A stretch of 64,000 nt of DNA from positions 4,906 through 68,905 of the forward strand of contig JBHELG010000039.1 in assembly GCA_046263195.1 (NCBI GenBank), given 5' to 3'. Below the pieces are notes generated by a model, which saw only the letters and a list, made by a program, of their open reading frames with translations, did no database searches and was not told the origin of the DNA. Below, in pieces: positions 7,255-58,410 of the stretch (within the stretch, counting starts at the first letter, position 1; every line of letters starts with the position of its first letter). Made by a program: the position numbers and the translations under genes. The stretch comes from Nitriliruptorales bacterium (GTDB lineage: Bacteria; Actinomycetota; Nitriliruptoria; Nitriliruptorales; JAHWKO01).

Positions 7255-8544
7255 TCACGTCGTGTAATAGGCGTTCTCGGCGACGTAGTTGGGGGTGAGG
7301 TCGGCGGTGAGGAAGCTCGCCTCGGCCGGCCCGAGACCAAGGTCGACCGTGACCTCGACGGCTGGTCCGGCCAGGAGCGCCGCCACCTGCCCCCGGTCGA
7401 AGGCGGTGGCGACACCGAAGCGGCAGACCGTGATCGCCTTGCTCGCACCCTGCCCGTCGGGGCCGGGCGTCCCGCCGATCCCAAACGTCACCGTCACCCG
7501 CTCGGGGTCGAATTCGACACCTGACGAGCCCATGGCGGCGAGGACTCGCCCCCAGTTGGGGTCGGCGCCGTGGAGGGCAGCACGCACGAGCGTCGAGGAC
7601 ACGATGGCCCTGGCGAGAGCCAGGGCGTCGCCCTCGCGGGTTGCTCCGGTCACTCGGATCTCGGCGACCTTGGATGTGCCTTCCCCGTCCTCGACCACGG
7701 CACGGGCGAGGTGTGCGCACACGGCCTCGAGTGCCTCGCGGAAGGTCGCAAGGGTCGGGGGATGAGGTTCGCGTCCGTTGGCCAGCACGATGACGGTGTC
7801 GTTGGTCGACGGACACATGTCGACGCTGATGCGATTGAAGGTGCGCGCCACGACTTGGCGGACCATCGGGCGCAGCACCGCCGGGGTGATCGGCGCGTCG
7901 GTGGCGATGACCGCGAGCATGGTCGCCATGGTCGGGGCGATCATGCCCGACCCCTTGGCCATGCCTCCGATGACGCAGGCACCGGCCGTGTCCTCGACCC
8001 GGACCGCCACCTCCTTGGTCCTCGTATCCGTCGTGAGGATCGCGCGGGCAGCGCGTGGCCCCCCGTCGGATGACAGATCGGCGATGACCGCGGGGATGCC
8101 AGCCAGGAGCTTGCTCAGCGGCAACGGCACACCGATGATGCCGGTCGAGCAGACGAGCACATCGGCGGGGTCGACGTCGAGAGCGCTCGCCACCGCTTCA
8201 GTCGTCGTCTCCGCGTCGCGGAGCCCGTTCGGGCCGGTGCACGCGTTCGCGTTGCCGCTGTTCACCACCACGGCACGAGCCGAACCGTTCGCGACATGGT
8301 GGGCGGTGACGAGACACGGGGCGGCCTTCACGCGGTTCGTCGTTATCGTCGCCGCAGCGGCTGCAGCGCAGTCGGAGACGACCAGGGCCAGGTCCTCCCG
8401 GCCGGAGGCCTTCATGCCGGTAGCCACTCCCCCCGCCCGGAAGCCACGTGCAGCGGCGACGCCCCCCGTGACAGGGGTGAGGCCGGGATGGTTGCCCGGG
8501 TCGAACATGACTGCTCCTTCACCGCGTGGAGCGGTGATGCTCAT
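7255..8544 (-). CDS. argJ: bifunctional ornithine acetyltransferase / N-acetylglutamate synthase
   Basis: GMAKGSGMIAPTMATML autoprocessing-site region; ATGA overlap with the argC stop. Confidence 0.92.
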   Translation of the reverse strand: MSITAPRGEGAVMFDPGNHPGLTPVTGGVAAARGFRAGGVATGMKASGREDLALVVSDCAAAAAATITTNRVKAAPCLVTAHHVANGSARAVVVNSGNANACTGPNGLRDAETTTEAVASALDVDPADVLVCSTGIIGVPLPLSKLLAGIPAVIADLSSDGGPRAARAILTTDTRTKEVAVRVEDTAGACVIGGMAKGSGMIAPTMATMLAVIATDAPITPAVLRPMVRQVVARTFNRISVDMCPSTNDTVIVLANGREPHPPTLATFREALEAVCAHLARAVVEDGEGTSKVAEIRVTGATREGDALALARAIVSSTLVRAALHGADPNWGRVLAAMGSSGVEFDPERVTVTFGIGGTPGPDGQGASKAITVCRFGVATAFDRGQVAALLAGPAVEVTVDLGLGPAEASFLTADLTPNYVAENAYYTT

Positions 8545-9686
8545 GGGTAGACGCCGACCGCGGTCAGCCCGAGTGCCTCCTCGAGGCCCAGGAGGAGGTT
8601 CGCGTTCTGCAGCGCCTGACCTGCGGCCCCCTTGCCCAGGTTGTCGATCGCGCTCGTGACCACGACCCGGTGGGTCCGTTCGTCGACGACGGCGGAGATT
8701 TGGCAGCCGTTGCAGCCTGTCAGGGCCTTGGTGTGCGGGAAACGACCCGGCGGCAGCACGCGAACGAATGGTTCGCCGGCATAGCGGTCAGCCAAGGCCG
8801 CCGTCACCTCAGCGGGCGTGATGTTCTCACGCAGCTGCGCGTAGCACGTGGCCAGGAGCCCTCGTGCCATGGGGACGAGATGTGGCGTGAACGAGACCGG
8901 TCCGAGCTCCCAGCCCCCGAACTCGTCGAGCCAACGCTCGATCTCGATGGTGTGGCGGTGGGTGGGTGCGCCGTAGGCGGCGACGTCATCATGGACATGC
9001 GGGTGGTGCAGGGACTCCTGGAGGCGTCGCCCGGCTCCGGAGGTCCCGGACTTCGCGTCGACGACGATCGTGCCGGGCAGTACCAGCTCGGCAAGGGGCA
9101 GCAGTGCGAGCAGTGCCGCGGTCGGGTAGCAGCCGGGGTTGGCGACGATGGTGGCGCCCCGGATGGCAGGCCGGTTCCACTCGCTCAACCCGTAGACGGC
9201 CGGGGCGCCTTGGGCGGGCGCGGTCTTGGGTTGCCCGGGGAAGGACTGCAGGCCCGGAGGGCGGGGACTGACGAGACCGCGGGGGGGACGAGTACGCGAC
9301 CCGCTCGTGCCACCTGTGCGAGGGGCGAGGTCGGGATGGAGGTGGGACTCGCCGTACCAGACGGCGAAGTCAGCAGGATCGAGACGGAAGGCGGCGGACA
9401 GGTCCACGACCGGGGTTCCCGTCTCGTGCAGGGCCCCTGCCAGCTCCATCGCGGCTGCATGTGGTGTCGCCAGGAAGATGAGATCACAATCCGCGAGCGC
9501 CTCAACCTCGGGTGTGACGAACACCGCGTCGTCGTCGAGGTTCGGGAAGAGTTGGGCCACCGACTCGCCCACCTGACGGTGTGCGGCCACGACGGCGACT
9601 TCGAGGGCGGGATGTCCGCCGAGCAGGCGCAGCAGCTCCGCGCCCCCGTAGCCCGAGGCGCCAACTACCCCGACGGTGTGGGCCAT
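8541..9686 (-). CDS. argC: N-acetyl-gamma-glutamyl-phosphate reductase, carrying an approximately 42-codon repeat-derived insertion
   Basis: Start trimmed to ATG at 9686 (GGGAAGGA 5 nt upstream; MAHTVGVVGASGYGG NAD-binding motif). Catalytic PGCYPTA present. An extra segment lies between HLHPDL and AVYGLSEW. Confidence 0.9.
   Translation of the reverse strand: MAHTVGVVGASGYGGAELLRLLGGHPALEVAVVAAHRQVGESVAQLFPNLDDDAVFVTPEVEALADCDLIFLATPHAAAMELAGALHETGTPVVDLSAAFRLDPADFAVWYGESHLHPDLAPRTGGTSGSRTRPPRGLVSPRPPGLQSFPGQPKTAPAQGAPAVYGLSEWNRPAIRGATIVANPGCYPTAALLALLPLAELVLPGTIVVDAKSGTSGAGRRLQESLHHPHVHDDVAAYGAPTHRHTIEIERWLDEFGGWELGPVSFTPHLVPMARGLLATCYAQLRENITPAEVTAALADRYAGEPFVRVLPPGRFPHTKALTGCNGCQISAVVDERTHRVVVTSAIDNLGKGAAGQALQNANLLLGLEEALGLTAVGVYP
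9201..9326. repeat. hairpin-repeat family A, long form, inside argC (reverse orientation relative to the ribBA and priA copies)
   Basis: The plus strand reads GCGGTCTTGGGTTGCCCGGGGAAGGACTGCAGGCCCGGAGGGCGGGGACTGACGAGACCGCGGGGGGGAC. Its reverse complement aligns with the copies at 30302 and 36607. Boundaries were inferred from the ArgC alignment and are approximate. Confidence 0.7.
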
Positions 9687-11867: not shown

Positions 11868-14800
11868 CTACTTGAGCTGGAAGGCAACCGGGTAAGGGTT
11901 GCCATCGCTGAGCGTGATCGTCACTCGGTAGCACTTGCCAGCCTGCTTCGGGCTCTGCCAGTTGTAGACGAACTGGTTCGCCGAGCTGTCGTAGCGCAGG
12001 CTGGTCCCACCCGTCGCATATTCGTCGAGGGGGTCGGAAGCACCACCCGTGCAGCTCACGACGGCCGAGAGGGTCGTCTTGACGATGGCAAGGTCAGAGA
12101 TGTAACCGTCCTTCTGGTTGGAGACCTGCCACTTCATGGGGGCGGTGGATCCGGCCTTCATGCCGTTGAGCGAGCTGCGGTCGACCGGTGCGGAGAAGCC
12201 GATGAAGTCGAAGCTGACCCTCACCTTGAAGCTCCTGCCGGCCCCGGTGTTGCCCGCCTTGTCCGTGGCCGAGCAGCTGACGATCGTTTCGCCGGGGGCG
12301 AAGGTCGTGCCCGACGCCGGAGAGCAGGTCGGAATGATGTCGCCGTCGACGAGGTCGCTCGCCGTCGCCGAATAGAACACCGTGGCGCCGCTGGCAGAGG
12401 TCGCCATGGCCGCGAGCGACCCGGGAACGTTGACAGCCGGAGCGGTCGTGTCTACCACCGTGACCTTGAAGCTCTTCGACGCTTCGTTGCCCTTGCTGTC
12501 CGACGCCCGGCAGGTCACCTCGGTCGTACCCAGAGGGAAGGTGGATCCCGAACCGGGGAGGCAGGCGGGGATGACGTCGCCGTCGACGAGGTCGTTCGCT
12601 GACGCCGAGTAGTTCACTCTTGCGCCGTCCGCCGAGGTCGCTTCGATCTTCTGGTCGGCCGGGACCACGATGGCAGGCGCCGTCGTGTCGATGACCGTGA
12701 TCGTGAAGCTACTGGCAGCCTCGTTGCCCGCCCGGTCGACGGCGGAGCACGTCACCGCGCTGTCGCCGATGTGGAACGTGTTCCCAGAGGCAGGGGTGCA
12801 GCTGACCTCGATGGCACCCTCGACGAGGTCCACCGCTGAAGCGGAGTAGCTCGCGGCAGCCCCGTCGGGCCCGGCCGCCTCGACCGCGAAGTCAGCGGGA
12901 ACGGTGACCTCGGGGGCCGTCGTGTCGACGACCTTGATCACGAAAGCGCTGTAGCCGGTGTTGCCTGCGGCGTCCCTTGCCGAGCAGGTGACCATGTTGT
13001 CGCCGAGGACGAAGGTGTCGCCGGAGCTGCGGTCGCAGGAGACCGTCACGGCCCCGTCGACCACGTCCGTGGCGGACGTGCCCGTCCACGTGGCCTTGGC
13101 TCCGTCGGGCCCCGTCGCTTCGAGAATCTGGTCGGCGGGCACGATCACGTGGGGGGCGGTCTCGTCCTGGACGCTGATGGTGAAGGCGTTCGTACCTTCG
13201 TTGCCCGCAGCATCCTGGGATGAGCACGTCACCTTCGTCGTCCCGAGGGGAAATGTGTCTCCTGCTTTGGCGTCGCAGTTGGCCGGGAGCAGCCCGTCGA
13301 CCACGTCGAGGGCCGAAACCCCGCTCCAGGAGACGTTGGCTCCATCCGCCGAAGTCGCTTCGGCTTCGATGTTGTCCGGCACGCTCACCTCCGGTGGCGT
13401 CGTGTCCACGACCTCGACCGTGAAACTCATCTCAGCGGCGTTGCCCCGCAGATCCCCGGTCGAGCATGTCACGATGTTGTGGCCGAGGGAGAAGGTCGAT
13501 CCTGAGGCAGGAGAGCACACGACCGGGCGGGAGCCGTCGACGATGTCGAGGGCGCTCGGCGGGGTGTAGCTGGCTCGGGCGCCCCCGGGGCCGGTGGCCT
13601 CGATGACCTGGTCACCGGGCAGATCTGTCAACAGGGGAGGCGTCGTGTCGGACACGGTTATCTTGAAGCTGCCCGAGGCGTTGTTGCCCGTGTTGTCGCT
13701 GGCCGAGCAGTTGACCGTGGTCGTTGCGATCTCGAAGGTTCCCCCCGAGGTTGGCGTGCACTCCACCGGGACGTTGCCGTCGACGAGGTCGCTGGCAGAG
13801 GCGGCAAAGGTGATGTCCGCCCCGGCCGTCTTCGTCGCCTCCTCAGTGATGTCCAGAGGCAGCGTGAGGGCGGGCGCCGTCGTGTCCTTGACCGTCACCT
13901 TGAAGCTGTTGTTGGCCCGGTTGCCCTTTGCGTCGATCGCGGAGCAACTCACCGTCGTGTCACCGACTGCGAAGCTGGAACCGGACGGGTAGTCGCAGAC
14001 GACATCACGGTCGCCGCTGACCAGGTCGAAGGCATTCGCGCTGTAGACGACGGCGGTCTCAGGGCCTTCAGCCTCGGTGTCGACGTCAGCGGGCAGGGTG
14101 AGCGTCGGCGGGGTCGTGTCCTGCACGCTCACGTTAAAGCCTCCATCTGCCCTGTTGCCGGCCTTGTCGCTGGCCGAGCAGTTCACCGGCGTGTCACCGA
14201 GGACGAAGGTGGAGCCCGATGACGGGGCGCAGGTGGGGGTGAGGGCGCCGTCGACGGAGTCGTTCGCGCTTGCGGTCCACGTCACCGCGGCACCCTGCGA
14301 CCCCGTCGCTTCGGCGACCCGGTTGGAGGGAAGCGCGAGGATCGGGCTGGTCGTGTCCTGAACCATCACGTTGAACTGGCCAACCGCCCTGTTGCCGGCG
14401 ACATCGGTCGCCGAGCAGTGGACGATGGTCGGTCCCAGCGGGAAGGTCGAGTCCGACGCCGGCGAGCAGTTCCAACTCGGGGCGGAATCGACGGCGTCGC
14501 TTGCGCTCGCCGTGTAGGCGACGGGCGCGCCGGAGGGGCCGGTGGCGTCTGCGGTGATGTCGCCCGGGAGCGTGAGCGTCGGAGCGGTGGAGTCGACGAT
14601 CGAGTAGACGGCCGAGGCGAAACCCTCGAGGCCCCCCGCGTCCTTGTAGGAGCAGGATGCGGTCTGGTTCCCCAGGCCGTAGTTGGAGAGACCACCCGAG
14701 ATTGCGCTGAGGGTCGCGGGGAAGGTCTTGGCGCCGTCCTCCTTGTCGTCGACGTTGCAGAAGGCTACGGGCACCGAGCCCTTCTCGTAGCTCGCGCCGT

Positions 14801-15293
14801 GGACGACGCCCGAGATGGAAAGGGTGGGCGCCGTGTTGCGCCTCACGACCTTGAGGATGAAGGTCGCCTTACTCGTGTCGTACGCGCCGCTGTCATCGTC
14901 GACGCTCACACTGATCGAGTAGTTGCCCGGAGTCGCCGACGACAGGGTGACCGCCTGGGCGACAGTATCCCCGCAGTCCTTGAACTCGAGGCGGTCGGGA
15001 GGTGACTTCGTCACCCCAGCAGGAACGATCACCGTTACTTTTGCAGGCGATTTCCCCGTCGCGTCGCAGCCGTTGAATCCTCCGGCCTTGTCGTTGTCGA
15101 TGTGGTAGCTGATCGTCGTCGACCCCGACCCCGAGGCCGGCAGCGCGATGGTGTCGCTGCCGCCCGCCACGACGTTGGTCCTCACCACGTCCGCGTAGGC
15201 GGGCAGCATCGTGGCCAGCACACCAAGGACGACCAGGGCATTGAGTACCCTGGCGATGGAGCGGCCGGTCTTTCCGGTCTGAATCCGTCGCAT
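11868..15293 (-). CDS. secreted multi-HYR-repeat protein with a C-terminal PxKF-like domain (1141 aa)
   Basis: ORF trimmed to ATG at 15293; the upstream part overlaps the response-regulator gene on the other strand. Signal peptide ends LATMLPAYA/DVV. There are ten repeats of about 80 aa of the type DTTAPxhxhPxDxxxEATxxxGAxVxYxxSAxDxVDGxxxxxCxPxSGSTFPLGxTxVTCSAxDxAGNxxxxSFxVxV. The tail reads GFSAPV...KAGSTAPMKWQV. Confidence 0.85.
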   Translation of the reverse strand: MRRIQTGKTGRSIARVLNALVVLGVLATMLPAYADVVRTNVVAGGSDTIALPASGSGSTTISYHIDNDKAGGFNGCDATGKSPAKVTVIVPAGVTKSPPDRLEFKDCGDTVAQAVTLSSATPGNYSISVSVDDDSGAYDTSKATFILKVVRRNTAPTLSISGVVHGASYEKGSVPVAFCNVDDKEDGAKTFPATLSAISGGLSNYGLGNQTASCSYKDAGGLEGFASAVYSIVDSTAPTLTLPGDITADATGPSGAPVAYTASASDAVDSAPSWNCSPASDSTFPLGPTIVHCSATDVAGNRAVGQFNVMVQDTTSPILALPSNRVAEATGSQGAAVTWTASANDSVDGALTPTCAPSSGSTFVLGDTPVNCSASDKAGNRADGGFNVSVQDTTPPTLTLPADVDTEAEGPETAVVYSANAFDLVSGDRDVVCDYPSGSSFAVGDTTVSCSAIDAKGNRANNSFKVTVKDTTAPALTLPLDITEEATKTAGADITFAASASDLVDGNVPVECTPTSGGTFEIATTTVNCSASDNTGNNASGSFKITVSDTTPPLLTDLPGDQVIEATGPGGARASYTPPSALDIVDGSRPVVCSPASGSTFSLGHNIVTCSTGDLRGNAAEMSFTVEVVDTTPPEVSVPDNIEAEATSADGANVSWSGVSALDVVDGLLPANCDAKAGDTFPLGTTKVTCSSQDAAGNEGTNAFTISVQDETAPHVIVPADQILEATGPDGAKATWTGTSATDVVDGAVTVSCDRSSGDTFVLGDNMVTCSARDAAGNTGYSAFVIKVVDTTAPEVTVPADFAVEAAGPDGAAASYSASAVDLVEGAIEVSCTPASGNTFHIGDSAVTCSAVDRAGNEAASSFTITVIDTTAPAIVVPADQKIEATSADGARVNYSASANDLVDGDVIPACLPGSGSTFPLGTTEVTCRASDSKGNEASKSFKVTVVDTTAPAVNVPGSLAAMATSASGATVFYSATASDLVDGDIIPTCSPASGTTFAPGETIVSCSATDKAGNTGAGRSFKVRVSFDFIGFSAPVDRSSLNGMKAGSTAPMKWQVSNQKDGYISDLAIVKTTLSAVVSCTGGASDPLDEYATGGTSLRYDSSANQFVYNWQSPKQAGKCYRVTITLSDGNPYPVAFQLK
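12213..14594 (-). repeat. array of 10 diverged HYR-domain coding repeats (about 240 nt period)
   Basis: Periodicity was read from the protein sequence. The DNA copies are diverged, so this is not a recent tandem amplification. Confidence 0.8.
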
Positions 15294-15435
15294 GAAATGC
15301 TTCCCAATCCTCGCGCGGACTCTCGGCCCGCTGGTCTTCTTTTGCGCCGGTTCCGCGGTTCTCCCCAGCACCGGCCCCGCTCTGGTCCCGTCGGACCAGC
15401 TGGTTCTCGCGCTGATACTGAAATCGGCCGGCCAG

Positions 15436-15462
15436 CTGAGAGAACCCTGAGTAGATGCTGAG
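15436..15462. promoter_or_regulatory. three CTGAG(A) direct repeats at exact 11-bp spacing in the divergent HYR / response-regulator intergenic region
   Basis: CTGAG occurs at 15436, 15447 and 15458 (gCTGAGagaac cCTGAGtagat gCTGAGaagac). A further CTGAGA lies at 15510. Confidence 0.35.
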
Positions 15463-15638
15463 AAGACCCTTAGTGTGGCCGAGAGGATCTGGGTAAGTGG
15501 TCGAGGACGCTGAGATACCCGAGCGTGGGACACGGGCCGGGCCGGGGGGAGCCGGTGAGGCAAGGACAGGTGTCCCGGAAAGGGACCTGAGGCTCCTTCA
15601 GGCGCCCAAATCGCCCGCTGCGCCGTTATCCTCTCCCC

Positions 15639-16313
15639 ATGATCACCTCCGCTCCACGGGTACTCGTCGTCGAGGACGACGCGGCCGTGCGCGACACGGT
15701 GACGCTCGCGCTCGAGCAGCAGGGCTTCGAGGTCCGCGCCGTGTCTGACGGGCTCGCGGTCGAGCAGGCGGTTCGCGATTTCCGCCCCGACCTCGCGGTC
15801 CTCGATGTGCGGCTGCCGGTCGGACCGAGCGGCCTCGGTGTCGCCCGGAACCTGCGGACGCTGACCGACGCCCCGATCATCTTCCTCACCGCTGCTGACG
15901 CGGTCGAAGACCGCCTGGCAGGATTCAGAGCCGGCGGTGACGACTACCTGGCGAAGCCCTTCGCCGTCGAGGAGTTGCTCGCGCGGATACGGGCTCTGCT
16001 GCGCCGCTCCGGGCGCATGGCGGCCCGATGGCAGGTCGGCGACGTCGTCGTCGACGAGGATGCCCGCACCGTGACCCGCGCAGGACAGCGCATCGACCTC
16101 ACCCGCACCGAGTTCGATCTGCTCGTCGCGCTCGGGTCGAAACCGGGGCGGGTACTGTCCAAGAGCCAGTTGCTCACAGGGGTGTGGGGTTTCGAGGAGT
16201 ACGACCCCAACCTCGTCGAGGTATACGTGAGCACCCTGCGGCGCAAGCTCGAGCAACATGGGACGCGTCTCATCAACACCGTCCGCGGGGTCGGCTACGT
16301 CCTCGAGCCATGA
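15639..16313 (+). CDS. OmpR/PhoB-family response regulator
   Basis: Receiver domain (VLVVEDD, DLAVLDVRLP) plus winged-helix C-terminus (VYVSTLRRKL, VRGVGYVL). TATCCT lies 6 nt upstream of the ATG with no SD, so the transcript may be leaderless. Confidence 0.9.
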   Translation: MITSAPRVLVVEDDAAVRDTVTLALEQQGFEVRAVSDGLAVEQAVRDFRPDLAVLDVRLPVGPSGLGVARNLRTLTDAPIIFLTAADAVEDRLAGFRAGGDDYLAKPFAVEELLARIRALLRRSGRMAARWQVGDVVVDEDARTVTRAGQRIDLTRTEFDLLVALGSKPGRVLSKSQLLTGVWGFEEYDPNLVEVYVSTLRRKLEQHGTRLINTVRGVGYVLEP

Positions 16314-18210: not shown

Positions 18211-18834
18211 TCAGGGGATGGGTACCCCCCAGATGGGAAACCAGCGGGTGAGGTCCTGCTCGATCTGAAGCTCGCCCCCGAGCGCCCCACGAATGCGAAG
18301 CTCGAGCTCGTTGTCGCGCCGCTCACCTTCGCGCGGCACGAAGGGATAGAACGTCCCGCGCTTGTAGAGGTAGACGAGGTGGGCGACGCGCCCCGGATCT
18401 GTCCCGCCCGCGGTCTTGGCAAGGCCAGGACCGCTTTCGCGCCCCAGCTCGTCTGTGAATGCGAACACGGAAGCGAGCAGCTGGGGGCCGAAGCCCCGCT
18501 CCTCGAGGGTGGCGTTCACGAGGTGCACGGTCGTGACGAGATCTTCGAGGTCGGGGTCGCGCACGATGATCCAGTGATAGCCATAGGAGTCCTGGTCCTG
18601 GGCAAGCTCGGACCCGGACTCTTTCGCGCTCACCGTCAGGAGTTCGGCTATCTCTTGTCTGGTCTCCTCGAAGACCTGGCCCGAGGCGGGGCGAAAGCAG
18701 ACTCCGGCGGCGCCGGCCTGCCGCAGCCCGAGCTCCGCCTCGAGGCCGACCGCGGCGCTCGGCAGTGCGAACAGGGCGTCGAGGTTCGCCTGCTTGCGCT
18801 TCGTACGTCCGAGGAGGACGTCGAGGAACCTCAC
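18211..18834 (-). CDS. PspA-associated protein (PspAB-like), containing a short hairpin-repeat insertion
   Basis: ORF trimmed to GTG at 18834, which forms a GTGA overlap with the htpX stop. It sits downstream of htpX in a pspA-pspAA-htpX cluster. The family assignment is from memory of the conserved actinobacterial cluster. Confidence 0.6.
   Translation of the reverse strand: MRFLDVLLGRTKRKQANLDALFALPSAAVGLEAELGLRQAGAAGVCFRPASGQVFEETRQEIAELLTVSAKESGSELAQDQDSYGYHWIIVRDPDLEDLVTTVHLVNATLEERGFGPQLLASVFAFTDELGRESGPGLAKTAGGTDPGRVAHLVYLYKRGTFYPFVPREGERRDNELELRIRGALGGELQIEQDLTRWFPIWGVPIP
18396..18445. repeat. hairpin-repeat family A, short form, inside the pspAB-like CDS
   Basis: GATCTGTCCCGCCCGCGGTCTTGGCAAGGCCAGGACCGCTTTCGCGCCCC is near-identical in layout to the short copy at 30388-30438. 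It is translated as [15 protein letters not shown]. Confidence 0.65.
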
Positions 18835-19751
18835 CTCGGCCGCCCCAGCTGGCGCTCGAGGGCCGCGAGCTGCTCGAGTCGGCGTTCCAGGCTTGGGTGG
18901 CTCGAGAAAAGCGACGACAGGCTGAACCCCGCCGAGATGGCCGGGGCGAAGAAGAACGCATTGAGGGGTTCGGCGGCGCGCAGGTCCCGGGTCGGAATGG
19001 CTCCCATCTCTCCGGTGACCTTGACGAGGGCGGCTGCCAGCGTGGCGGGCGCCCCGGTCAGGATTGCCCCCGAGCGGTCCGCGGACAGCTCCCGGTAGCG
19101 CGACAGCGCTCGGGTCAACAGGAAGCTCACCGCGTAGACCACCGCGGAGACGAGCAGGATGACGAGGAAGGCGGCGGCGCCCGAGTCCTCGTCGTCGTCG
19201 CCCATCCCGAACCCGCCCCACATGCCCATGTGCAGGCCGAAGCGGGTGATGAGGCCGGCGAGCACGCCGAGGAAGCTCGCGATGGTCATGACGGCGACGT
19301 CACGATGGGCGACGTGAGCCAACTCGTGGGCCAGCACGGCCTCGAGTTCGGGCAGTTCGAGGCGGTGCATGATCCCCGTCGTGACACACACGACGGCCAC
19401 CCGGGGGTTGCGTCCCGTGGCGAAGGCGTTGGGAAGGTCGAGGTCGGCGACGGCGACCCGTGGCTTGGGCATGTCAGCGAGGGCGCAGAGGCGGTCGACG
19501 ACGCCGTGGAGCTCGGGGGCTTCTTCCGCGCTGACCTCGCGCGCCCCGAGGCTCGCGAGCGCGATGCGGTCGGAGAACCAATACTGGGCGAACAAGAATC
19601 CCGCGGCTATGAGCACGACGAAGATGGTTGGCAGCCCCACCGCGATGAGCACGCCCATGAAAGCCACATAGAGCAGGCCCAGCAGGAACATGGTCCAAAG
19701 CATGCGGGCCGCCAGGCCCGTGTCGTGGGGATAGCGCGTCCGCATGTTCAA
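18831..19751 (-). CDS. htpX: M48-family zinc protease HtpX
   Basis: HELAHVAHRD zinc motif and multiple TM segments. TTG start at 19751 with GGGAGGGA 5 nt upstream; an alternative ATG lies at 19745. Confidence 0.9.
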   Translation of the reverse strand: MNMRTRYPHDTGLAARMLWTMFLLGLLYVAFMGVLIAVGLPTIFVVLIAAGFLFAQYWFSDRIALASLGAREVSAEEAPELHGVVDRLCALADMPKPRVAVADLDLPNAFATGRNPRVAVVCVTTGIMHRLELPELEAVLAHELAHVAHRDVAVMTIASFLGVLAGLITRFGLHMGMWGGFGMGDDDEDSGAAAFLVILLVSAVVYAVSFLLTRALSRYRELSADRSGAILTGAPATLAAALVKVTGEMGAIPTRDLRAAEPLNAFFFAPAISAGFSLSSLFSSHPSLERRLEQLAALERQLGRPR

Positions 19752-19899
19752 CTAGGTCCCTCCCGCCTCTGTCGCGGTCTGGCATATTCCCGGCCCGCCG
19801 GGCCTTCGGCCCTTCCCCGCAGACCCAAGACCGCCACTACGACCTCTTCCCCGAATCGGTCCCTCCCGCCTCCGTCGTACCACTGAGGACGTCCCACCC
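19752..19899. repeat. intergenic hairpin-repeat cluster (family A long form with ACTACGACCTC tail, flanked by a 20-bp direct repeat)
   Basis: GTCGCGGTCTGGCATATTCCCGGCCCGCCGGGCCTTCGGCCCTTCCCCGCAGACCCAAGACCGCCACTACGACCTCTTCCCC. GGTCCCTCCCGCCTC(T/C)GTCG occurs at 19755-19774 and 19858-19877. Confidence 0.65.
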
Positions 19900-26794: not shown

Positions 26795-26989
26795 CAATCG
26801 TCCCACCGGCGGTCTTTTCAGGCCCCAGGCCGCGACTACGACCTCTCCCCCAGAACCTGGCGTCCCGCCTCCGTCGCCGTCTGGACAAGTCTTGTCGCGG
26901 TCTGTCAGGCCCAAGCCCGCGACTACGACCTCTCCCCCAGAATCATGCCTTCCGGCCTCCGTGGCCGTCTTGGACACGTCTTGCCACGG
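26795..26989. repeat. intergenic cluster of hairpin repeats (2-3 units with CCNAGNCCGCGACTACGACCTCTCCCCCAGAA tails)
   Basis: AATCGTCCCACCGGCGGTCTTTTCAGGCCCCAGGCCGCGACTACGACCTCTCCCCCAGAA, then ...GTCCCGCCTCCGTCGCCGTCTGGACAAGTCTTGTCGCGGTCTGTCAGGCCCAAGCCCGCGACTACGACCTCTCCCCCAGAATC, then ...CCGTCTTGGACACGTCTTGCCACGG. Confidence 0.65.
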
Positions 26990-29533: not shown

Positions 29534-31129
29534 TCAACGCTCCTCGGAGACGGCGGGATCAGGGACAGCTGGGGTCACCCCGGGCCCCGGGGCAAACGCG
29601 AGACCGTCGCAGACGACCCGGGATGGGCTCATGGGGCCCGGGCTGGTCGGGGTGAACAGGAACTCGGACTGGCGGGCGAGATCACCGACACCGGTCGAGT
29701 CGACCCTTCGCTCGTCAGCGATGGTGAAGACGTGTCCGAGCTTCTCCTGCTTCGTCGCGAGATAGAGAGCGTTGGCTGGGTTCGAGCGCACCTGGAGCGG
29801 TACGCGGTCGACGATCTCCAGACCGAATTCTGCGATGCCAGCCCGCTTCGCGGGGTTGTTCGTCAGTAGTCGCAGCGTCGAGAGCCCTAGGTCGGCGAGG
29901 ATCATCGCGGCGGTGCCGTAGCTGCGCGAGTCGGCGGGGAGGCCCAGGGCGAGGTTCGCGTCGACGGTGTCGCTGCCGTCGTCCTGGAGTTGGTAGGCCT
30001 GGAGCTTGTGGATGAGGCCGATGCCCCGTCCCTCGTGACCTCGCAGGTAGACCACGACACCGCGGCCTTCTTCGGCGATGCTCGCCATCGCAAGATCGAG
30101 CTGGGCACCGCAGTCGCAGCGCCGCGACCGGAAAACGTCCCCGGTCAGACACTCGGAGTGGACCCGCACGAGCACGTTGCGTGCGCCTTCGGTGTCGCCG
30201 TACGCGAGGGCGAGATGGTGTAGGCCGTCGACGAGCGATTCGTAACCGATCACCCGCCAGCTGCCGTAAGGGGTGGGAAGATGGGTCTCGGCGACGCGAC
30301 GAATTGTCCCGCCGGCGGTCTTGACTGTCCCCGCCCTCCGGGCCTGTGGCCCTCCCCCGGACAAGCCAAGACCGCCTTCCCGCCCAGGATCTGTCCCGCC
30401 GGCGGTCTTGGGCAAGCCAAGACCGCCTTCCCGCCCGGGCACGAGCCGCTCGCAACGGCGGCGGTAGGCGATGATGTCCGCGATGGAGATGAGCGGGAGA
30501 CGGTGCCGGTCGGCGAACTCCCTCAGCTCGGGAAGGCGGGCCATGGTGCCGTCGTCACCCATGATCTCGCAGATGACTCCCGCAGGATAGAGACCGGCGA
30601 GACGAGCCAGGTCGACGGCGGCTTCGGTGTGGCCGGGGCGCCGCAGGACTCCCCCCTCCGTGTAGCGGAGGGGGAAGACGTGGCCGGGGCGGCGGAAGTC
30701 GTTCGCAGCGGCCTCGGGGCTGAGCAAGCGCGCGATGGTGTGGGCCCGGTCGTAGGCGCTGATCCCGGTCGAGCGCGGGACGTCGAGGTCGATGGAGACC
30801 GTGAAGTTCGTGTCGGTGCTGGCGCTCGGGGAGGCGACCATGGGCCCGATGTCGAGTTCTTCGAGTCGTTTGGCGACGATCGCCACACAGATGAGGCCGC
30901 GGCCGAACCTCGCCATGAAGTTGACCGCTTCGGGTGTGATCTTCTCGGCGGCGATGACGAGGTCACCCTCGTTCTCGCGTTCGGCGTCATCGACGACGAT
31001 CACCATGCCGCCCTCGGCGATCCTGGCGCGTGCCTGCCCGATCGGGGCGTGCGGGAGCTCAGCCACCACGTCCGTCACCTCCGCCTGTGAGGTCGCCGCC
31101 GGCGCTCCCAGAGGCGTACGCCGCTCCAC
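29534..31129 (-). CDS. ribBA: bifunctional 3,4-dihydroxy-2-butanone-4-phosphate synthase / GTP cyclohydrolase II, with a repeat-derived linker insertion and a C-terminal extension
   Basis: [11 protein letters not shown] (RibB) and [18 protein letters not shown] (RibA). 531 aa, against the roughly 400-425 aa usual for this enzyme. The start is uncertain because the ORF overlaps the ribE 3' end by 71 nt; GTG at 31066 or 31069 is possible. Confidence 0.9.
30302..30440. repeat. hairpin-repeat family A: long copy (30302-30386) plus short copy (30388-30438) in tandem inside ribBA
   Basis: AATTGTCCCGCCGGCGGTCTTGACTGTCCCCGCCCTCCGGGCCTGTGGCCCTCCCCCGGACAAGCCAAGACCGCCTTCCCGCCCAGG followed by GATCTGTCCCGCCGGCGGTCTTGGGCAAGCCAAGACCGCCTTCCCGCCCGGG. 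Confidence 0.75.
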
Positions 31130-31735: not shown

Positions 31736-32860
31736 CTACCGGCCAACGTCGGCAGAGGCGGCGGGTTGGAGCGGCGGTTGCGGGCGGGCGACGATCACGA
31801 GGTCGCCTCCGAGCCGGTCCACCGAGTCAAGCCGCCACGTCCAGCGCTCGGCCAGCGAACGTGCGCCGGGGCCTGCGATGCTCGCGACACCGTCACCCCC
31901 GATCAGGGCGGGTGCCACATGCAGAACGAGGCGGTCAACCAGGTTCCCGCGTACGAGCGCCCCGGCGAGGGTGGGTCCGCCTTCCGCCAGCATCGCCTGG
32001 ACGTCGCGCTCGGCGCAGGCCTGCAGTGCGGCCGTGAGGTCCACACCGCCGCCCGCTGCGGGTGCGACAGTAACGACATCGACACCGCGTTCGGCCATGG
32101 CTCGGCGCCACTCCGGCTTGGACTGCGTCGTCGTGACAGCTATCGCCCCCGGACGAGCCGCCTTGGCGTTGGCAGGAATACGCCCACGCGCGTCGAGCAG
32201 GACGGGTCGGGGCTGGACCGGCGGCGCCGGTACGTGACGAACGGTCAATTCGGGGTCGTCGCCGAGCACCGTTCCCGAGCCCACCATGACCGCATCCATC
32301 CTCGCCCGGAGCGAATGAACGGCCGAACGTGCCTCGGACGAGCTGATCCACCGACTGGAGCCGTCGCGTGCGGCAGCCCGCCCATCGAGGGTCTGGGCGA
32401 GCTTGAGGGTCACGAACGGCCGACCCGTGCGGTGGAAGTGGACGAAGACCTCGTTCTGCTGTGATGCCTCGTCCGCCATCAGTCCACCGCTCACCGTGAG
32501 CCCGGCCGCACGAAGTCGTTCGGCGCCTCCTCGCGCGTGGGCGGTGGGCTCGGTCAGGGCATAGACCACGCGAGCTACACCGGCGTCGATGAGCGCGTCG
32601 GCGCACGGCCCGGTGCGCCCGTGATGAGCGCATGGTTCGAGGGTGACGTAGGCCGTGGTACCCCTCGCCCGTCCTCGAGCCGTCCCCAGCGCGACGATCT
32701 CCGCGTGTGGACCTCCTGCCCGTTCGTGCCAACCCTCGCCGACGACCGCGCCTTGATGGACGAGCACGCACCCGACCAGCGGGTTCGGTCGCACAGTGGC
32801 CCGACCGCGCTCGGCGAGTTCAAGCGCCCTGCGCATATGAACCTCGTCGAGCGCAGCCAC
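31736..32860 (-). CDS. ribD: bifunctional diaminohydroxyphosphoribosylaminopyrimidine deaminase / 5-amino-6-(5-phosphoribosylamino)uracil reductase
   Basis: ORF trimmed to GTG at 32860 (or ATG at 32836). HAEIVAL and PCAHHGRTGPC deaminase motifs. The removed 5' part overlaps rsmB. Confidence 0.9.
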   Translation of the reverse strand: MAALDEVHMRRALELAERGRATVRPNPLVGCVLVHQGAVVGEGWHERAGGPHAEIVALGTARGRARGTTAYVTLEPCAHHGRTGPCADALIDAGVARVVYALTEPTAHARGGAERLRAAGLTVSGGLMADEASQQNEVFVHFHRTGRPFVTLKLAQTLDGRAAARDGSSRWISSSEARSAVHSLRARMDAVMVGSGTVLGDDPELTVRHVPAPPVQPRPVLLDARGRIPANAKAARPGAIAVTTTQSKPEWRRAMAERGVDVVTVAPAAGGGVDLTAALQACAERDVQAMLAEGGPTLAGALVRGNLVDRLVLHVAPALIGGDGVASIAGPGARSLAERWTWRLDSVDRLGGDLVIVARPQPPLQPAASADVGR

Positions 32861-32927
32861 CTCAGGTCCTCGATCTTGCCGTCGACGTGTATCCGGGAGA
32901 GCTTTGCAATGGGGCTGACCGCCGCCG

Positions 32928-35826: not shown

Positions 35827-37965
35827 TCATCCCACATCGACGGGGTCTACATCGACCCTCACGTCGAGGCCCTCCCGGCTCCACACCACACGCAGTGGAG
35901 TGAGCGCGGCGAGCGTCGATGAGCGGTCGGCACTCTTCACGAGCAGACCGGAGCGCTCGCCGAGCGGACGGGGTCCGAGCACCTGGTCGCTGCCGGGGAG
36001 GCCACTGCGCAGGTCGGCGGCGACCCGCCGACCGTCGCCATGGACGTCGAGTCGAATCGCGTAGGCGGCGGGGGGAAAGCGCAGTTCACCTCTTCGGCGT
36101 GCTTCCTCACGCCAGAACGCTCCCGGGTCCCAAGCCACGAGCGCACGGACCGCGTGATGCCCAGGCTCCCGCGTCTGCACGACGACCGCCCCGTCCGGCA
36201 CGAGCGCGCCACGGGTGGCCGACCCGGGGCGCTTCACGCCGGCTGAGCGGGATGGCCACGCGGCCACCCGGAAAGCGAGCCTCAGGGCATCCTCGCCGGC
36301 ATCGAGTGTGGGACGCCTGAGCTGACCGTCGAGATCCGGTAGCACGACCGCCCCCACGGGACCGGGTGGCTCTGACAGGGCCGAGCCCCTCGTCATGACC
36401 ACGATCGCGGGAGGCGGCGGTGCGGGCTGCGCGTATCCCTCCAACACCGCCACGACCGTGTTCCGAAAGGTCCTGGCGAGTTCCGAGCCCAGGCGCGCCG
36501 CTCCCGCCGCGAGCGGCGCAAAGACGTCACCGCCGCAACGGCCGCAGCGCATGTGCTCACGTTCTGTCGTCCAGCCGCACCCCTCGCAGAGGACGGCCAA
36601 GTCACGACCCGTCCCGCCCGCGGTCTCGGCCCTCCCCGCCCTCCGGGCCTGCGGCCCTCCCTCGGGCAGGCCAAGACCGCTCACCCACCCGGAGGCGACC
36701 GCGAGAGAGGAGTCGCACCTTGGGCAGGCGAACCTTTCGCTGCATCGACTGCACAGGAGGGCACGACCCTCCCCGCGACGAGCAGCGAGCACGACTCCGA
36801 GTTCTCCACGCTTCAGGCATGACCGCAGGGCCTCGACGGCGGGAGTGCCGAGTCGGCCGGGAGAACCGGAGAGGGAGCGATCGTCGAGGCGCACGATGGG
36901 AGCCGCGGACCGTTCGGCGCTCCGGTCTGGTACGACCGGCCGCAGGCGCCGCTCGGCGAGCAGACGCCAAGCTGCGGCGCTCGGGACGGTGCCGACCAGT
37001 ACGGCGGTTGCGCCCGCTCGCCGCGCCCGTTCGAGCACGACCTCGCGGGCGTGGTGCCGGGGAGCGCGCCGCTCCTTGAGAGCCGGGTTCGCCTCGTCAA
37101 TGATGACGGCCAGCCCGAGTCGGGCGAGGGGCCAGAACGCCACGCCTCGTTCCCCGACCACGACCCGAAGCTGCCCGCAGCGAGCCTCGAGCCACCCCCG
37201 GTACAGGCGCCTGGCGCCAGGCCCGCCCCGCATGTCGACGGCCAGGTCCCGGAAGGCGTGCGTGACTGCATCGGCCGCGCAGCTCTTCGGCTCCGGTACG
37301 ACGACGAGGACGTCGCGACCTCCGTCCAAGGTGGCCGCGGCGAGTTCAACGAGTCGGACGCCGAGGTTCTCGTGTGGCAGCGTCCTCCAGTAGAAGGCCC
37401 CCGCTCCAGCTTCAGCCGCAACTCTGAGCTCGCTCCCCGCGTGGCCGTAGGGCGACCATGCGCTGTCATCGATCGCGACAGGCTCGGGATCGGGGGGACG
37501 AGCTGCCCGTCCGGGGGGGTACCACCCCGCCTCCTCGGCGCGGCGTTCGACGTCGCTGACGCGCTGGGGTAGGGCGTGGCGGATCACTGCGGCGGTCGGG
37601 GCGGCGAAGCGCTGTGCTGCCCAGCGCAGGACTTCGATCTCTTCCGGCGTCGCCCAGGCGTGCGGGCCGAGAACGCGCCGCACCTCACGGAGCTTGTGGG
37701 ACGACGTGTCTTGCGTCAGGGCGACGACGAGGCCGCGCACGCGCCGACCGGCGAAGACGACTTCGACGCGGGAGCCCACTCGGATGCGAGGCGCGAGTGC
37801 CTCGGGGAGGGCATAGTCGAAGGGACGGTCGAGGTGGTCGGGCTCGACCTCGACGAGAACCTGTGCGATGGGCAGCTGGTCAGACCCCGACGGCTTCGCG
37901 GAGTTCGTCCGCCCGGTCGGCGCGCTCCCAGGTGAAGGTGGCGCCGCTGCGCCCGAAGTGCCCAT
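35827..37965 (-). CDS. priA: primosomal protein N' (PriA), with a repeat-derived insertion in the Cys-rich region
   Basis: N-terminal FDYALPE, helicase-core-like region and a Cys cluster [14 protein letters not shown]...CEGCGW...CGRCGG. The ATG at 37965 overlaps the metK 3' end by 86 nt, so the true start is uncertain. Confidence 0.85.
36607..36692. repeat. hairpin-repeat family A, long form, inside priA
   Basis: ACCCGTCCCGCCCGCGGTCTCGGCCCTCCCCGCCCTCCGGGCCTGCGGCCCTCCCTCGGGCAGGCCAAGACCGCTCACCCACCCGG aligns along its length with the ribBA long copy. Confidence 0.75.
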
Positions 37966-48682: not shown

Positions 48683-48735
48683 GAGGTCGTAGTGGCGGTC
48701 CTGAGCCTAAGAGGTCGTAGTAGCGGTCTTGGGCC
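48683..48735. repeat. two tandem GAGGTCGTAGT(G/A)GCGGTC(C/T)TG(A/G)GCC units (reverse orientation of the ACTACGACCTC-tailed repeats)
   Basis: Units lie at 48683-48707 and 48711-48735. They fill most of the 74-nt spacer between the small ORF stop (48736) and the carB start (48661). Confidence 0.65.
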
Positions 48736-49047
48736 TCACAGGGCGGTCCCGGGCAGGGTGTGGTCGCGCTCGCCTACCGATGTGGCCTCCCCGCCTCCGG
48801 CGTGGACCATGACGATGTCAGACGTGTTCACGAGCACCGTCTCCGCCCGCTCCCGTTCCCCCGCGAGCTCGTAGACGGCGTCCACGATGGGCAGGAAGTT
48901 GGGCGGCGAGATGTTCAACACGTCGGAGATGCGGCGGTTGTAGGTGCGGGTTTCGACCTGCACCTCTCCTTCGACGATGCAGCCGTTGCGGAGAAACACC
49001 TTGACCCGGACCGGCCGGGTGCGCACGGGAGCCTGCGGATCACTCAT
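48736..49047 (-). CDS. hypothetical protein (103 aa) between carA and carB
   Basis: Trimmed to ATG at 49047: ATGA overlap with the carA stop, and AAGGCGGAG 4 nt upstream. Sequence: MSDPQAPVRTRPVRVKVFLRNGCIVEGEVQVETRTYNRRISDVLNISPPNFLPIVDAVYELAGERERAETVLVNTSDIVMVH... I recognise no family. Confidence 0.5.
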   Translation of the reverse strand: MSDPQAPVRTRPVRVKVFLRNGCIVEGEVQVETRTYNRRISDVLNISPPNFLPIVDAVYELAGERERAETVLVNTSDIVMVHAGGGEATSVGERDHTLPGTAL

Positions 49048-57826: not shown

Positions 57827-58410
57827 GCTTGCCCGCCCTCCCGCCGCCTACGGCGGCGCCCGGTCGCCCGCCCGACCTCTTCGCGACTGAGCACGCCAGG
57901 CACGCTCGCGGCCCAGGAGAGCACGGCTTCGGCGACTTCGACCGGCGTGCCGCTCGCGTCGACGCTGTGGTCAGCGGCCAGTGCGTAGCGCGGCGCCCGC
58001 AGCTCCAAAAGCTCCGCGACGCGGGCGGGGAGGTCGGACCCGACGAGCAGGGGACGAGCTCGGGCCTGGGTGGCCAGGCGAGCGGCAAGCGTCTCGCTGG
58101 ACGCTCGCAGCTCGACGAGTACGCCGGAGCTGCGCAGCGCCTCGAGGCAGGCGTCGTCGAGCACAGCTCCCCCACCGACGCTCACGACCTGGTTGGAGTG
58201 ACGGGAGACGTGGGCAACCGCGAGCCTCTCGAGGCGACGAAACGCCGGCTCGCCCTCCTCCTCGAAGATGATCGGGATGGGCCGTCCGGCCATACGCTCG
58301 ACCTCGGAGTCCGTGTCGAGGTGGGGCCTTCCCAACCGGTCGGCAACGATCATGGCGACCGTCGACTTGCCTGCTCCCATCATGCCGAGCAGCACGAGAT
58401 TTTTCGTCAC
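57823..58410 (-). CDS. aroK: shikimate kinase
   Basis: GMMGAGKSTV P-loop. Confidence 0.9.
   Translation of the reverse strand: MTKNLVLLGMMGAGKSTVAMIVADRLGRPHLDTDSEVERMAGRPIPIIFEEEGEPAFRRLERLAVAHVSRHSNQVVSVGGGAVLDDACLEALRSSGVLVELRASSETLAARLATQARARPLLVGSDLPARVAELLELRAPRYALAADHSVDASGTPVEVAEAVLSWAASVPGVLSREEVGRATGRRRRRREGGQA

What the first reader, a model, noticed from the sequence alone, without database searches (positions are those of the whole stretch)
9201..9326. argC carries the element in the opposite orientation and is still in-frame
ArgC reads ...HLHPDL-APRTGGTSGSRTRPPRGLVSPRPPGLQSFPGQPKTAPAQGAP-AVYGLSEW..., while homologues as I recall them run almost directly from HxxPEL to AVYGLPE. 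The DNA of the extra segment is the reverse complement of the long copies in ribBA and priA, although all three genes are on the same strand. The element therefore appears tolerated in coding sequence in both orientations, giving two different peptides: PRGLVSPRPPGLQSFPGQPKTAP versus [23 protein letters not shown].
Basis: partly seen in the sequence, partly recalled or inferred. Interest (0 to 1): 0.7.

Follow-up and report, generated by a model that had tools for sequence, protein, structure and literature searches.

The report
Palindromic repeat inserted in-frame in argC
An 84-base copy of a small palindromic repeat sits in frame inside the arginine-biosynthesis gene argC of an uncultured Nitriliruptorales actinobacterium, flipped relative to its copies in ribBA and priA. 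It resembles the "Rickettsia palindromic elements" but occurs in a free-living, GC-rich bacterium.

Summary
argC (8541..9686, minus strand) carries extra sequence between HPDL and AVYGLSEW. That DNA is the reverse complement of repeat copies in ribBA and priA, and all three genes are on the minus strand.

Only 9213-9296 (84 nt, 28 codons, RTRPPRGLVSPRPPGLQSFPGQPKTAPA) is the repeat. The flanking 14 residues are a loop shared with four close relatives that lack exactly those 84 nt.

The element is a modular nested palindrome with outer arms GCGGTCTYG...CCAAGACCGC. It occurs as an 84-nt long form (argC, ribBA, priA, one intergenic copy) and a 54-nt hairpin form (ribBA, a PspAB-family gene). A 90-nt variant occupies the same ribBA site in a related assembly.

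All genic copies are multiples of three and stop-free. In both orientations the arms are read in the same codon phase (G-L ... K-T-A). AlphaFold predicts an intact ArgC fold, with the insert as a low-confidence, unstructured loop at a site that holds 0-50 residues across the order.

Best reading: a selfish, non-autonomous palindromic element, like Rickettsia RPEs or coding MITEs, tolerated as a translated surface loop. How it moves is unknown: argC shows no target-site duplication and no transposase was found. This is a new member of a known kind, of moderate interest.

The parts
8541..9686 (-). argC (N-acetyl-gamma-glutamyl-phosphate reductase), 381 aa from MAHTVG; catalytic Cys186 in PGCYPTA
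   Evidence: ORF list and Pfam PF01118/PF22698; 100% identical to an NCBI MAG Nitriliruptorales protein; PDB ArgC matches
9213..9296 (-). 84-nt long-form palindromic element; its forward strand is the window's minus strand, i.e. the argC mRNA strand. Encodes residues 131-158, RTRPPRGLVSPRPPGLQSFPGQPKTAPA
   Evidence: Exactly absent from four relatives' argC genes; translation; inverted match to the priA and ribBA copies
9297..9326 (-). Lineage-specific loop residues APRTGGTSGS, 5' of the element in gene orientation; not part of the repeat
   Evidence: Present in element-free relatives P0002-P0006; no significant similarity to the element
9201..9212 (-). Loop residues QGAP, 3' of the element in gene orientation; not part of the repeat
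   Evidence: Aligned with relatives
30302..30385 (+). Long-form element in ribBA (gene on minus strand), read as [28 protein letters not shown]
30386..30439 (+). 54-nt short (hairpin-only) element in ribBA, in tandem with the long copy, read as [18 protein letters not shown]
   Evidence: 46-aa insertion in the DHBP-synthase/GTP-cyclohydrolase linker versus homologues
36601..36684 (+). Long-form element in priA, between the two CxxC pairs, read as (V)[27 protein letters not shown]. Boundaries are approximate to a few codons
18395..18448 (+). Short-form element in a PspAB-family gene (18211..19221, minus), read as [18 protein letters not shown]
   Evidence: 54 nt absent from the orthologue in L001; Pfam PF22742
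19751..19844 (+). Long-like copy in the spacer between the pspA gene and the M48 peptidase gene
   Evidence: nhmmer E=2e-18; sequence; flanking genes
26795..26975 (+). Cluster of partial or related intergenic units sharing the arm motifs, with a GACTACGACCTCT tail
48683..48745 (-). Related partial units just upstream of carB

Best explanation
A small, non-autonomous, palindromic dispersed repeat inserted into a surface loop of argC in this lineage, and it is translated as part of the protein.

The element is a nested hairpin. The outer 9-12 bp arms are GCGGTCTYG / CCAAGACCGC, flanked by TCCCGCC-like motifs. The long form adds an inner GGGCC-NNN-GGCCC hairpin. Units measure 54 nt (hairpin only) and 84 nt (hairpin plus inner module).

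The units are multiples of three, very G+C-rich and almost free of stop codons on either strand. A copy landing in a tolerant loop therefore adds 18 or 28 Gly/Pro/Ser/Thr/Arg-rich, probably disordered residues without breaking the gene. Selection then keeps only such copies.

The argC copy has the opposite orientation to the ribBA, priA and PspAB-gene copies. It yields a different central peptide, but the arm-encoded residues ((R/G)GL...KTA) are the same because the arms are palindromic and read in the same phase.

Shown: repeat identity, inversion, exact 84-nt presence/absence, in-frame state, and loop position with low model confidence. Inferred: translation of the insert, functional neutrality, and mobility in trans by an unidentified enzyme. 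The lack of a target-site duplication at argC points more to hairpin-recognising, single-strand or site-specific mechanisms (IS200/IS605-RAYT-like or IS110-like) than to classical DDE MITE transposition.
For: - **Repeat family and orientation:** searches show 8-11 Watson-Crick pairs of 12 in the outer arms of all eight copies examined.
- **Presence/absence at argC:** four relatives from four different assemblies lack exactly 84 nt at the same place, and more distant orthologues lack it too.
- **Same pattern elsewhere:** the PspAB-family gene differs by 54 nt and ribBA by 138 nt = 54+84.
- **Related assembly GCA_030155285.1:** it carries a canonical long copy at a gene end (L123) and a 90-nt variant at the same ribBA site (L124).
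- **Intergenic copies:** they show this is a DNA element, not a protein motif.
- **Base composition:** the inserts have non-host codon-position G+C (GC2 0.75 versus 0.50; GC3 0.70-0.75 versus 0.83-0.84).
- **Structure:** the AlphaFold model has pTM 0.83, with residues 126-158 below pLDDT 50 and without secondary structure. The rest matches solved ArgC at target-normalised TM 0.88.
- **Site tolerance:** the same loop holds 0-50 residues across Nitriliruptorales ArgC.
- **Precedent:** RPEs and other coding MITEs (PMC2229807, PMC3184786, PMC10969869).
Against: - Only one inverted genic copy exists, and it is seen in a single metagenome-assembled genome with no read-level check.
- No transposase or autonomous relative was found. 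The 29 ORFs scanned with Pfam are housekeeping or ordinary genes.
- No target-site duplication at argC. At the PspAB gene an 8-bp direct repeat is ambiguous.
- Exact-pattern scans of the genome and metagenome collections found no further copies, so copy number, genome-wide distribution and activity are unknown.
- Translation and enzyme activity were not tested.
- Folding z-scores are modest, -1.3 to -3.2.
Confidence: 0.8

Rival explanations
1. The insert has been co-opted. Either the peptide loop or the mRNA hairpin inside argC, ribBA and priA serves a function such as regulating translation or mRNA stability, or acting as a protein interaction loop. On this view it is kept by positive rather than merely permissive selection.
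For: All genic copies use one codon phase. The ribBA site is occupied in two lineages. The outer stems are preserved.
Against: Close relatives do without the argC and PspAB-gene copies. The interior of the ribBA copy is replaced wholesale in L124. The argC copy has the weakest stem and a degraded inner hairpin. G-U versus C-A mismatches fall on different strands in different copies, so no consistent RNA strand is favoured. The peptides are low-complexity and modelled as disordered.
Confidence: 0.1
2. Assembly artefact: a repeat-induced chimera in the metagenome-assembled genome placed the element inside argC.
For: The argC insertion is seen in one assembly only, and its DNA is not in the look-up collection. 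Short repeats are a known source of misassembly.
Against: Both flanks continue the same gene in the same frame, with an exact 84-nt gain at a codon boundary. A chimera would normally join unrelated flanks. Four other genic copies in the window behave the same way. An independent assembly has family members, including one at the same ribBA site.
Confidence: 0.04
3. The element is present in the mRNA but is not translated. It would be skipped by ribosomal bypassing, as in phage T4 gene 60 or the mitochondrial GC-rich 'byp' elements, or removed at the RNA level.
For: It is a GC-rich hairpin-forming insert in coding sequence. The PspAB-gene copy has matching GGG CGC codons at both ends.
Against: Every genic copy is a multiple of three and open in the host frame, which bypassing would not require. 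argC and ribBA have no matching take-off and landing codons. No Rfam family matched at gathering threshold.
Confidence: 0.03
4. Ordinary loop growth: the segment arose by local slippage or indels in a hypervariable loop, and resembles the other segments only through composition.
For: The loop is hypervariable in the order, with unrelated inserts of 20-50 aa in P0009, P0010, P0017 and P0088. No repeats were found for two of them.
Against: The match to the priA copy is 85% complementary over 74 nt on the opposite strand, and nhmmer gives E=4e-21. A 53-nt core of the argC copy, searched with up to 3 mismatches, found only itself; shuffled windows gave no matches. An intergenic copy exists.
Confidence: 0.02

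Closest known systems
Rickettsia palindromic elements (RPE; Ogata et al. 2000, 2002, as summarised in PMC2229807 and PMC10969869)
   Same: Dispersed palindromic repeats with terminal inverted repeats. They are found both between genes and inserted in frame in conserved housekeeping genes, adding a peptide without destroying the ORF. No clear target-site duplication, and no transposase of their own.
   Different: No sequence relationship is expected: RPEs are AT-rich and 105-146 bp, whereas these are 76% G+C and 54/84/90 nt. The host is a free-living, high-G+C actinobacterial lineage rather than a reduced intracellular alphaproteobacterium. This family is modular (hairpin with or without an inner module) and has genic copies in both orientations. 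The orientation behaviour of RPEs could not be checked in the papers held.
Bacterial MITEs with open reading frames (ERIC, 107-bp Correia/NEMIS, Anabaena MITEs; PMC2229807, PMC3184786)
   Same: Small non-autonomous repeats with inverted termini that fold into stem-loops and are sometimes fused in frame to host ORFs, internally or at gene ends. The L123 copy forms a gene's C-terminus in this way.
   Different: Classical MITEs have target-site duplications (often TA) and a cognate IS. Neither was found here.
REP/BIME elements mobilised by RAYT (IS200/IS605-like) transposases
   Same: Short G+C-rich imperfect palindromes with conserved flanking motifs, clustered intergenic arrays, and no target-site duplication.
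   Different: REPs are by definition extragenic. Here 5 of the 6 clear copies in the window are inside genes. No RAYT gene was seen, though only 64 kb was available.
Mycobacterial interspersed repetitive units (MIRU; PMC3184786)
   Same: Actinobacterial 40-100 bp repeats inside operons, whose small ORFs overlap the stop and start codons of neighbouring genes. The L123 copy has a comparable ATGA overlap.
   Different: MIRUs are intergenic and often tandem, and are not internal in-frame insertions in enzymes. Sequence similarity was not tested.
PARCELs (palindromic amphipathic repeat coding elements; PMC2996958)
   Same: A palindromic coding repeat.
   Different: PARCELs are tandem intragenic repeats encoding amphipathic segments in surface proteins. 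Here the copies are single, Gly/Pro-rich inserts in cytoplasmic enzymes.

Membership tests
RPE-like 'protein-coding palindromes' (functional class) | Multi-copy dispersed repeat with a palindromic, hairpin-forming sequence | tested here: met
   Four long copies, two short copies and partial copies in 64 kb, plus copies in L123 and L124. Outer arms have 8-11 of 12 Watson-Crick pairs.
RPE-like 'protein-coding palindromes' (functional class) | Inserted inside conserved protein genes without breaking the reading frame, shown by filled versus empty orthologous sites | tested here: met
   argC 84 nt; PspAB gene 54 nt; ribBA 138 nt; priA about 28-31 aa.
RPE-like 'protein-coding palindromes' (functional class) | Insert lies at the protein surface, compatible with the fold | tested here: inconclusive
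   The insert has pLDDT below 50 and no secondary structure, while the rest of the model matches ArgC structures.
RPE families proper (RPE-1 to RPE-10 of Rickettsia) | Sequence homology to an RPE consensus | not tested
   No RPE consensus was available to the tools. Nothing in Rfam matched at gathering score. Composition (76% G+C) makes homology implausible.
MITE | Terminal inverted repeats | tested here: met
   GCGGTCTYG ... CCAAGACCGC arms in all copies.
MITE | Target-site duplication flanking the insert | tested here: not met
   Comparing filled and empty argC sites shows no duplication beyond a 1-nt ambiguity. The PspAB gene has an 8-bp GGGGCGCG repeat, but this overlaps the element's own conserved end and leaves 3 nt unexplained.
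MITE | Cognate autonomous IS with the same termini | not testable with these tools
   The rest of this genome is not in the searchable collections. None of the 29 window ORFs scanned with Pfam (not the whole window) matched a transposase family.
REP/BIME-RAYT | Extragenic location | tested here: not met
   Five of the six clear copies in the window are intragenic.
REP/BIME-RAYT | Associated RAYT (Y1 transposase) gene | not testable with these tools
   Only 64 kb of the genome was available.
Translational bypass elements (gene 60 / byps) | Insert not a multiple of three or containing stops, with matched take-off and landing codons | tested here: not met
   Lengths are 54 and 84 nt, open in the host frame. 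argC has no matching flanking codons.

The most novel reading that the evidence does not exclude
This is an undescribed family of modular 'ambisense-coding' palindromic elements in free-living Nitriliruptorales (Actinomycetota). It colonises essential genes in frame in either orientation, but only in the one codon phase where the palindromic arms read G-L...K-T-A. That would imply either a phase- or target-specific insertion mechanism, or strong selection for one tolerable peptide. It would also show that RPE-type gene invasion is not peculiar to reduced intracellular genomes.
Probability: 0.3. Interest if true: 0.6.

Novelty: new member of a known kind. Interest (0 to 1): 0.4.

Why it matters
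In-frame invasion of housekeeping enzymes by palindromic repeats has been treated largely as a Rickettsia curiosity, linked to relaxed selection in intracellular bacteria. An analogous but unrelated family in a free-living, high-G+C actinobacterial order would show the phenomenon is more general.

It also offers natural insertion experiments, with filled and empty alleles of argC, a PspAB-family gene and ribBA among close relatives. These mark permissive loops in well-studied enzymes.

For annotation, it explains odd length outliers and "low-complexity linkers" in genes from metagenome-assembled genomes. The modular 54/84/90-nt architecture and the apparent codon-phase lock are testable leads on how such elements move and are filtered.

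Tried and rejected
- **Strict element patterns in public collections.** GCGGTCTYGNNNNNCCCCGCCCTCCGGGCC gave 0 hits in genome contigs and in metagenome contigs. CCGGGCCTNNGGCCCTN{8,16}CCAAGACCGC gave 0 hits in metagenome contigs. This genome and its near relatives are not in those collections.
- **Loose arm pattern.** None matched the nhmmer profile.
- **Six-frame peptide query.** A concatenated query against the protein database recovered only ArgC itself and P0121, and missed RibBA and PriA from the same genome, so it was not a usable census. It did lead to the L123 copy.
- **"Scar" hypothesis.** I tested whether the 12-14-aa loop shared by element-free relatives, and the 10-aa ribBA extra in L125, are decayed older copies. 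Local alignments were no better than shuffles (p = 0.07-0.96). Not supported, not excluded.
- **Other ArgC-loop inserts.** Those in L126 (P0088) and L127 (P0017) showed no repeat copies in their 8-12 kb contigs. Power was low.
- **Source contig.** Looking up the window's own ArgC to fetch more of the contig found nothing on record.
- **Rfam.** No family matched at gathering threshold anywhere in the window.
- **RibBA C-terminal extra.** The 15 aa shared with P0123 is not a repeat within the window.
- **Ogata 2002.** The paper could not be read, so RPE orientation and phase behaviour rests on reviews only.

Full report
**What is at the coordinates**

The finding lies inside a minus-strand ORF, 8541..9686 counted from MAHTVG (381 aa). 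The ORF has the two ArgC/semialdehyde-dehydrogenase domains, but 174 residues are needed to cover the 121-position NAD-binding profile. The protein is 100% identical to an NCBI entry named [quoted passage not shown] on a 73,370-bp contig.

The window is a housekeeping region of a 68% G+C uncultured actinobacterium. It carries argH/G, argB/J/C, pheS/T, hisG, ribBA/E/D, rsmB, fmt, def, priA, metK, coaBC, carA/B and aroB.

Solved ArgC structures align on both sides of this segment and skip it.

**Is it the inverted repeat?**

Yes.
- The repeat finder reports 9220-9293 as an inverted match to 36607-36680 (74 nt, 85%), and 9220-9289 to 30306-30375 (70 nt, 84%).
- A 53-nt core of the argC copy, searched with up to 3 mismatches, found only itself. 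Shuffled windows gave no matches.
- An nhmmer profile built from the long copies finds four of them: ribBA 30291-30388 (+, E=7e-24), argC 9304-9209 (-, E=4e-21), priA 36596-36693 (+, E=2e-20) and an intergenic copy 19751-19844 (+, E=2e-18). It also finds short or partial copies.
- ribBA (29534..31129) and priA (35827..37965) are on the minus strand like argC. The argC copy is therefore truly flipped relative to its host gene.

**Exact boundaries**

Among ArgC homologues, the closest are P0002-P0006 (75-78% identical by BLASTP, 81-84% over aligned columns; 352-353 aa). They retain a short loop (APRT-GTSGA-QDG, or APSRRAKSAS-QAAP) but lack 28 residues. P0007, P0008 and most other Nitriliruptorales go almost directly from HPDL to AVYGL.

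I fetched the DNA of four relatives from four different assemblies: L001 GCA_030776795.1, L002 Logan SRR26798490, L128 GCA_030154565.1 and L129 GCA_030155105.1. All align with a single clean 84-nt gap at a codon boundary.

In window coordinates the insert is 9213-9296. It encodes RTRPPRGLVSPRPPGLQSFPGQPKTAPA, residues 131-158.

Insertion in the window's lineage is the parsimonious polarity. There is no target-site duplication: only one nucleotide is ambiguous at the junctions.

**Anatomy of the element**

Oriented alike, the copies read:

(N8) TCCCGCC S GCGGTCTYG [interior] CCAAGACCGC NNN CCCGCC

- The outer arms pair at 8-11 of 12 positions in every copy. argC is the weakest, with 8.
- The long form has a 42-nt stretch between the GCGGTCTYG and CCAAGACCGC arm motifs, containing a second hairpin (GGGCC-NNN-GGCCC). 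The short form has only about 5 nt.
- As RNA the copies fold to -26 to -53 kcal/mol. The z-scores are modest (-1.1 to -3.2) because any sequence this G+C-rich folds well.
- Where an arm position is a G-U/C-A pair, the wobble falls on different strands in different copies, so no one RNA strand is favoured.
- No Rfam family matches at gathering threshold.

**The other genic copies are real insertions too**

- **PspAB-family gene (18211..19221).** It carries a 54-nt short copy (18395-18448, [18 protein letters not shown]). The copy is absent from the orthologue on L001.
- **RibBA.** It has a 46-residue insert exactly between the DHBP-synthase and GTP-cyclohydrolase II domains. This is a short copy (30386-30439) followed by a long copy (30302-30385). 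Eleven more distant homologues read ERLV-RRVAET without it.
- **RibBA in relatives.** P0123 (83% identical by BLASTP, 85% over aligned columns; L124, GCA_030155285.1) has a 90-nt element at the same site. Its arms and flanks are the same but its interior is unrelated. P0141 (L125) has only 10 extra residues. This site was occupied before the lineages split, and the interior has since been exchanged or decayed.
- **PriA.** About 28-31 extra residues lie between the two CxxC pairs of the zinc-binding region. HMMER splits nearly every homologue alignment at that point.
- **L123.** A further canonical long copy lies in L123, also from GCA_030155285.1. It encodes the last ~25 residues of a gene and abuts the next gene's ATG.

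Unit lengths where empty sites exist are 54 and 84 nt, both multiples of three.

**Reading frames**

Six-frame translation shows 4-5 of the 6 frames of each long copy are open. Staying in frame follows mostly from unit length and G+C content and is not remarkable in itself.

The phase is more interesting. Every genic copy is read so that the 5' arm gives (G/R)-G-L and the 3' arm gives K-T-A. This covers ribBA long and short, priA, the PspAB gene and L123 in one orientation, and argC in the other. It is the same codon phase on the palindromic arms in both orientations.

The alternative phases are mostly open. They would encode Cys- or Trp-containing, or very Arg-rich, peptides. With about five independent events the phase bias is suggestive, roughly 1 in 27 to 1 in 81 by chance. 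It is not established.

The inserts also keep a non-coding compositional signature: GC2 0.75 versus 0.50 in the host genes, and GC3 0.70-0.75 versus 0.83-0.84.

**Consequence for ArgC**

An AlphaFold model built on the 29-sequence alignment has pTM 0.83. Residues 126-135 and 137-158 are below pLDDT 50 with no secondary structure, and these cover the whole insert. The helix before it (104-111) and the strand after it (163-165) are confident, and the catalytic Cys186 helix is intact. The model superposes on solved ArgC structures at target-normalised TM 0.88.

The same loop is naturally hypervariable in the order. Inserts of 20-50 residues, unrelated in sequence, occur in P0009, P0010, P0017 and P0088. 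I found no repeat copies for two of these in their short contigs.

I could not measure distances to the active site because coordinates are not returned. "Surface loop away from Cys186" is therefore likely but not shown.

**Mechanism**

The best-supported account is a selfish, non-autonomous palindromic repeat that has spread within this lineage. Its survival inside essential genes is explained by three features:
- length divisible by three;
- near-absence of stop codons on either strand;
- a flexible Gly/Pro/Ser/Thr/Arg-rich product (mean hydropathy -0.4 to -1.0) placed in permissive loops or linkers.

Presence/absence differences among relatives at argC, the PspAB gene and ribBA show turnover on the time-scale of about 15-20% protein divergence.

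How it moves is unknown. No transposase is present among the 29 window ORFs scanned, and the rest of the genome is not searchable. The lack of a target-site duplication argues against classical DDE MITE transposition. It is more compatible with hairpin-recognising single-strand transposition (IS200/IS605/RAYT type), IS110-type site-specific insertion, or recombinational copying. This step is inference only.

**Comparison with known systems**

Functionally this is the phenomenon described for Rickettsia palindromic elements. Those are 105-146-bp palindromic repeats with about 12-bp inverted termini and no clear target duplication. They are found in frame in 19 or more conserved genes, and one host enzyme (Gmk) has been shown to remain active (PMC2229807, PMC10969869).

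It also resembles ORF-carrying MITEs such as ERIC and the 107-bp Correia element (PMC2229807, PMC3184786). It is not a member of the RPE families by any test I could run. It fails the MITE criterion of target-site duplication and the REP criterion of extragenic location.

Full-text searches found no report of such elements in Nitriliruptorales or of in-frame MITE-like repeats in actinobacterial housekeeping genes. That is absence of evidence within an open-access subset.

**Verdict**

Being in frame in either orientation is close to automatic for this family.

It is a new member of a known kind. Interest is moderate, for three reasons: the unusual host (free-living, high G+C), the modular architecture, and the possible codon-phase lock across both orientations. 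The last point needs a whole-genome census to stand.

Noticed in passing
window 56151-56228 and 57829-57858: A 39-nt unit (CAGGCGGCGGGAGGGCGGGAAAATCGGG...) occurs twice in tandem at the 5' end of, or upstream of, the M24 peptidase gene. An inverted partner (TTGCCCGCCCTCCCGCCGCC) lies just upstream of the aroB-like gene. This is a different small repeat family sharing a CCGCCCTCCCGCC motif.
   Followed up: partly
window 19820-19877, 26819-26876, 26906-26963, 48683-48741: Intergenic units with a conserved GACTACGACCTCT(C/T)CCCC tail follow a CCAAGRCCGC arm. They look like the intergenic, arrayed relatives of the genic element, similar to BIME clusters.
   Followed up: partly
window 11868-16259 (minus strand): A 1463-aa protein with ten HYR domains and an Ig-like domain. 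It accounts for the 237-nt-period direct repeats in the repeat list.
   Followed up: yes
L124 2249-2329 (ribBA of GCA_030155285.1); also L124 1478-1567: The same ribBA site as in the window holds a 90-nt variant with identical arms and flanks but an unrelated interior. A weak further copy lies between the riboflavin synthase gene and ribBA. This suggests interior modules are exchanged between elements.
   Followed up: partly
L123 1209-1298: A canonical long copy encodes the C-terminal ~25 residues of a 230-aa protein of unknown function (P0121). It ends at an ATGA stop/start overlap with the next gene, reminiscent of mycobacterial MIRUs.
   Followed up: partly
ArgC alignment A1, columns 158-210 and 308-340: Across Nitriliruptorales the HPDL-AVYG loop holds 0-50 residues of unrelated sequence (P0009, P0010, P0017, P0088). 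A second loop after IE.WLPG carries 10-35-residue inserts in P0070, P0095 and P0096. These are possible hot spots for other insertions.
   Followed up: partly
window 29603-29671 (ribBA C-terminal region): RibBA of the window and of P0123 share about 15 extra residues ([15 protein letters not shown]) absent from other homologues. The DNA is not repeated elsewhere in the window.
   Followed up: yes
window 31736-33475 (minus strand): The RibD ORF is 579 aa, but its Pfam domains start at residue 210. The upstream 200 codons overlap the rsmB ORF and are probably not coding. The ORF list generally over-extends starts in this G+C-rich DNA.
   Followed up: no
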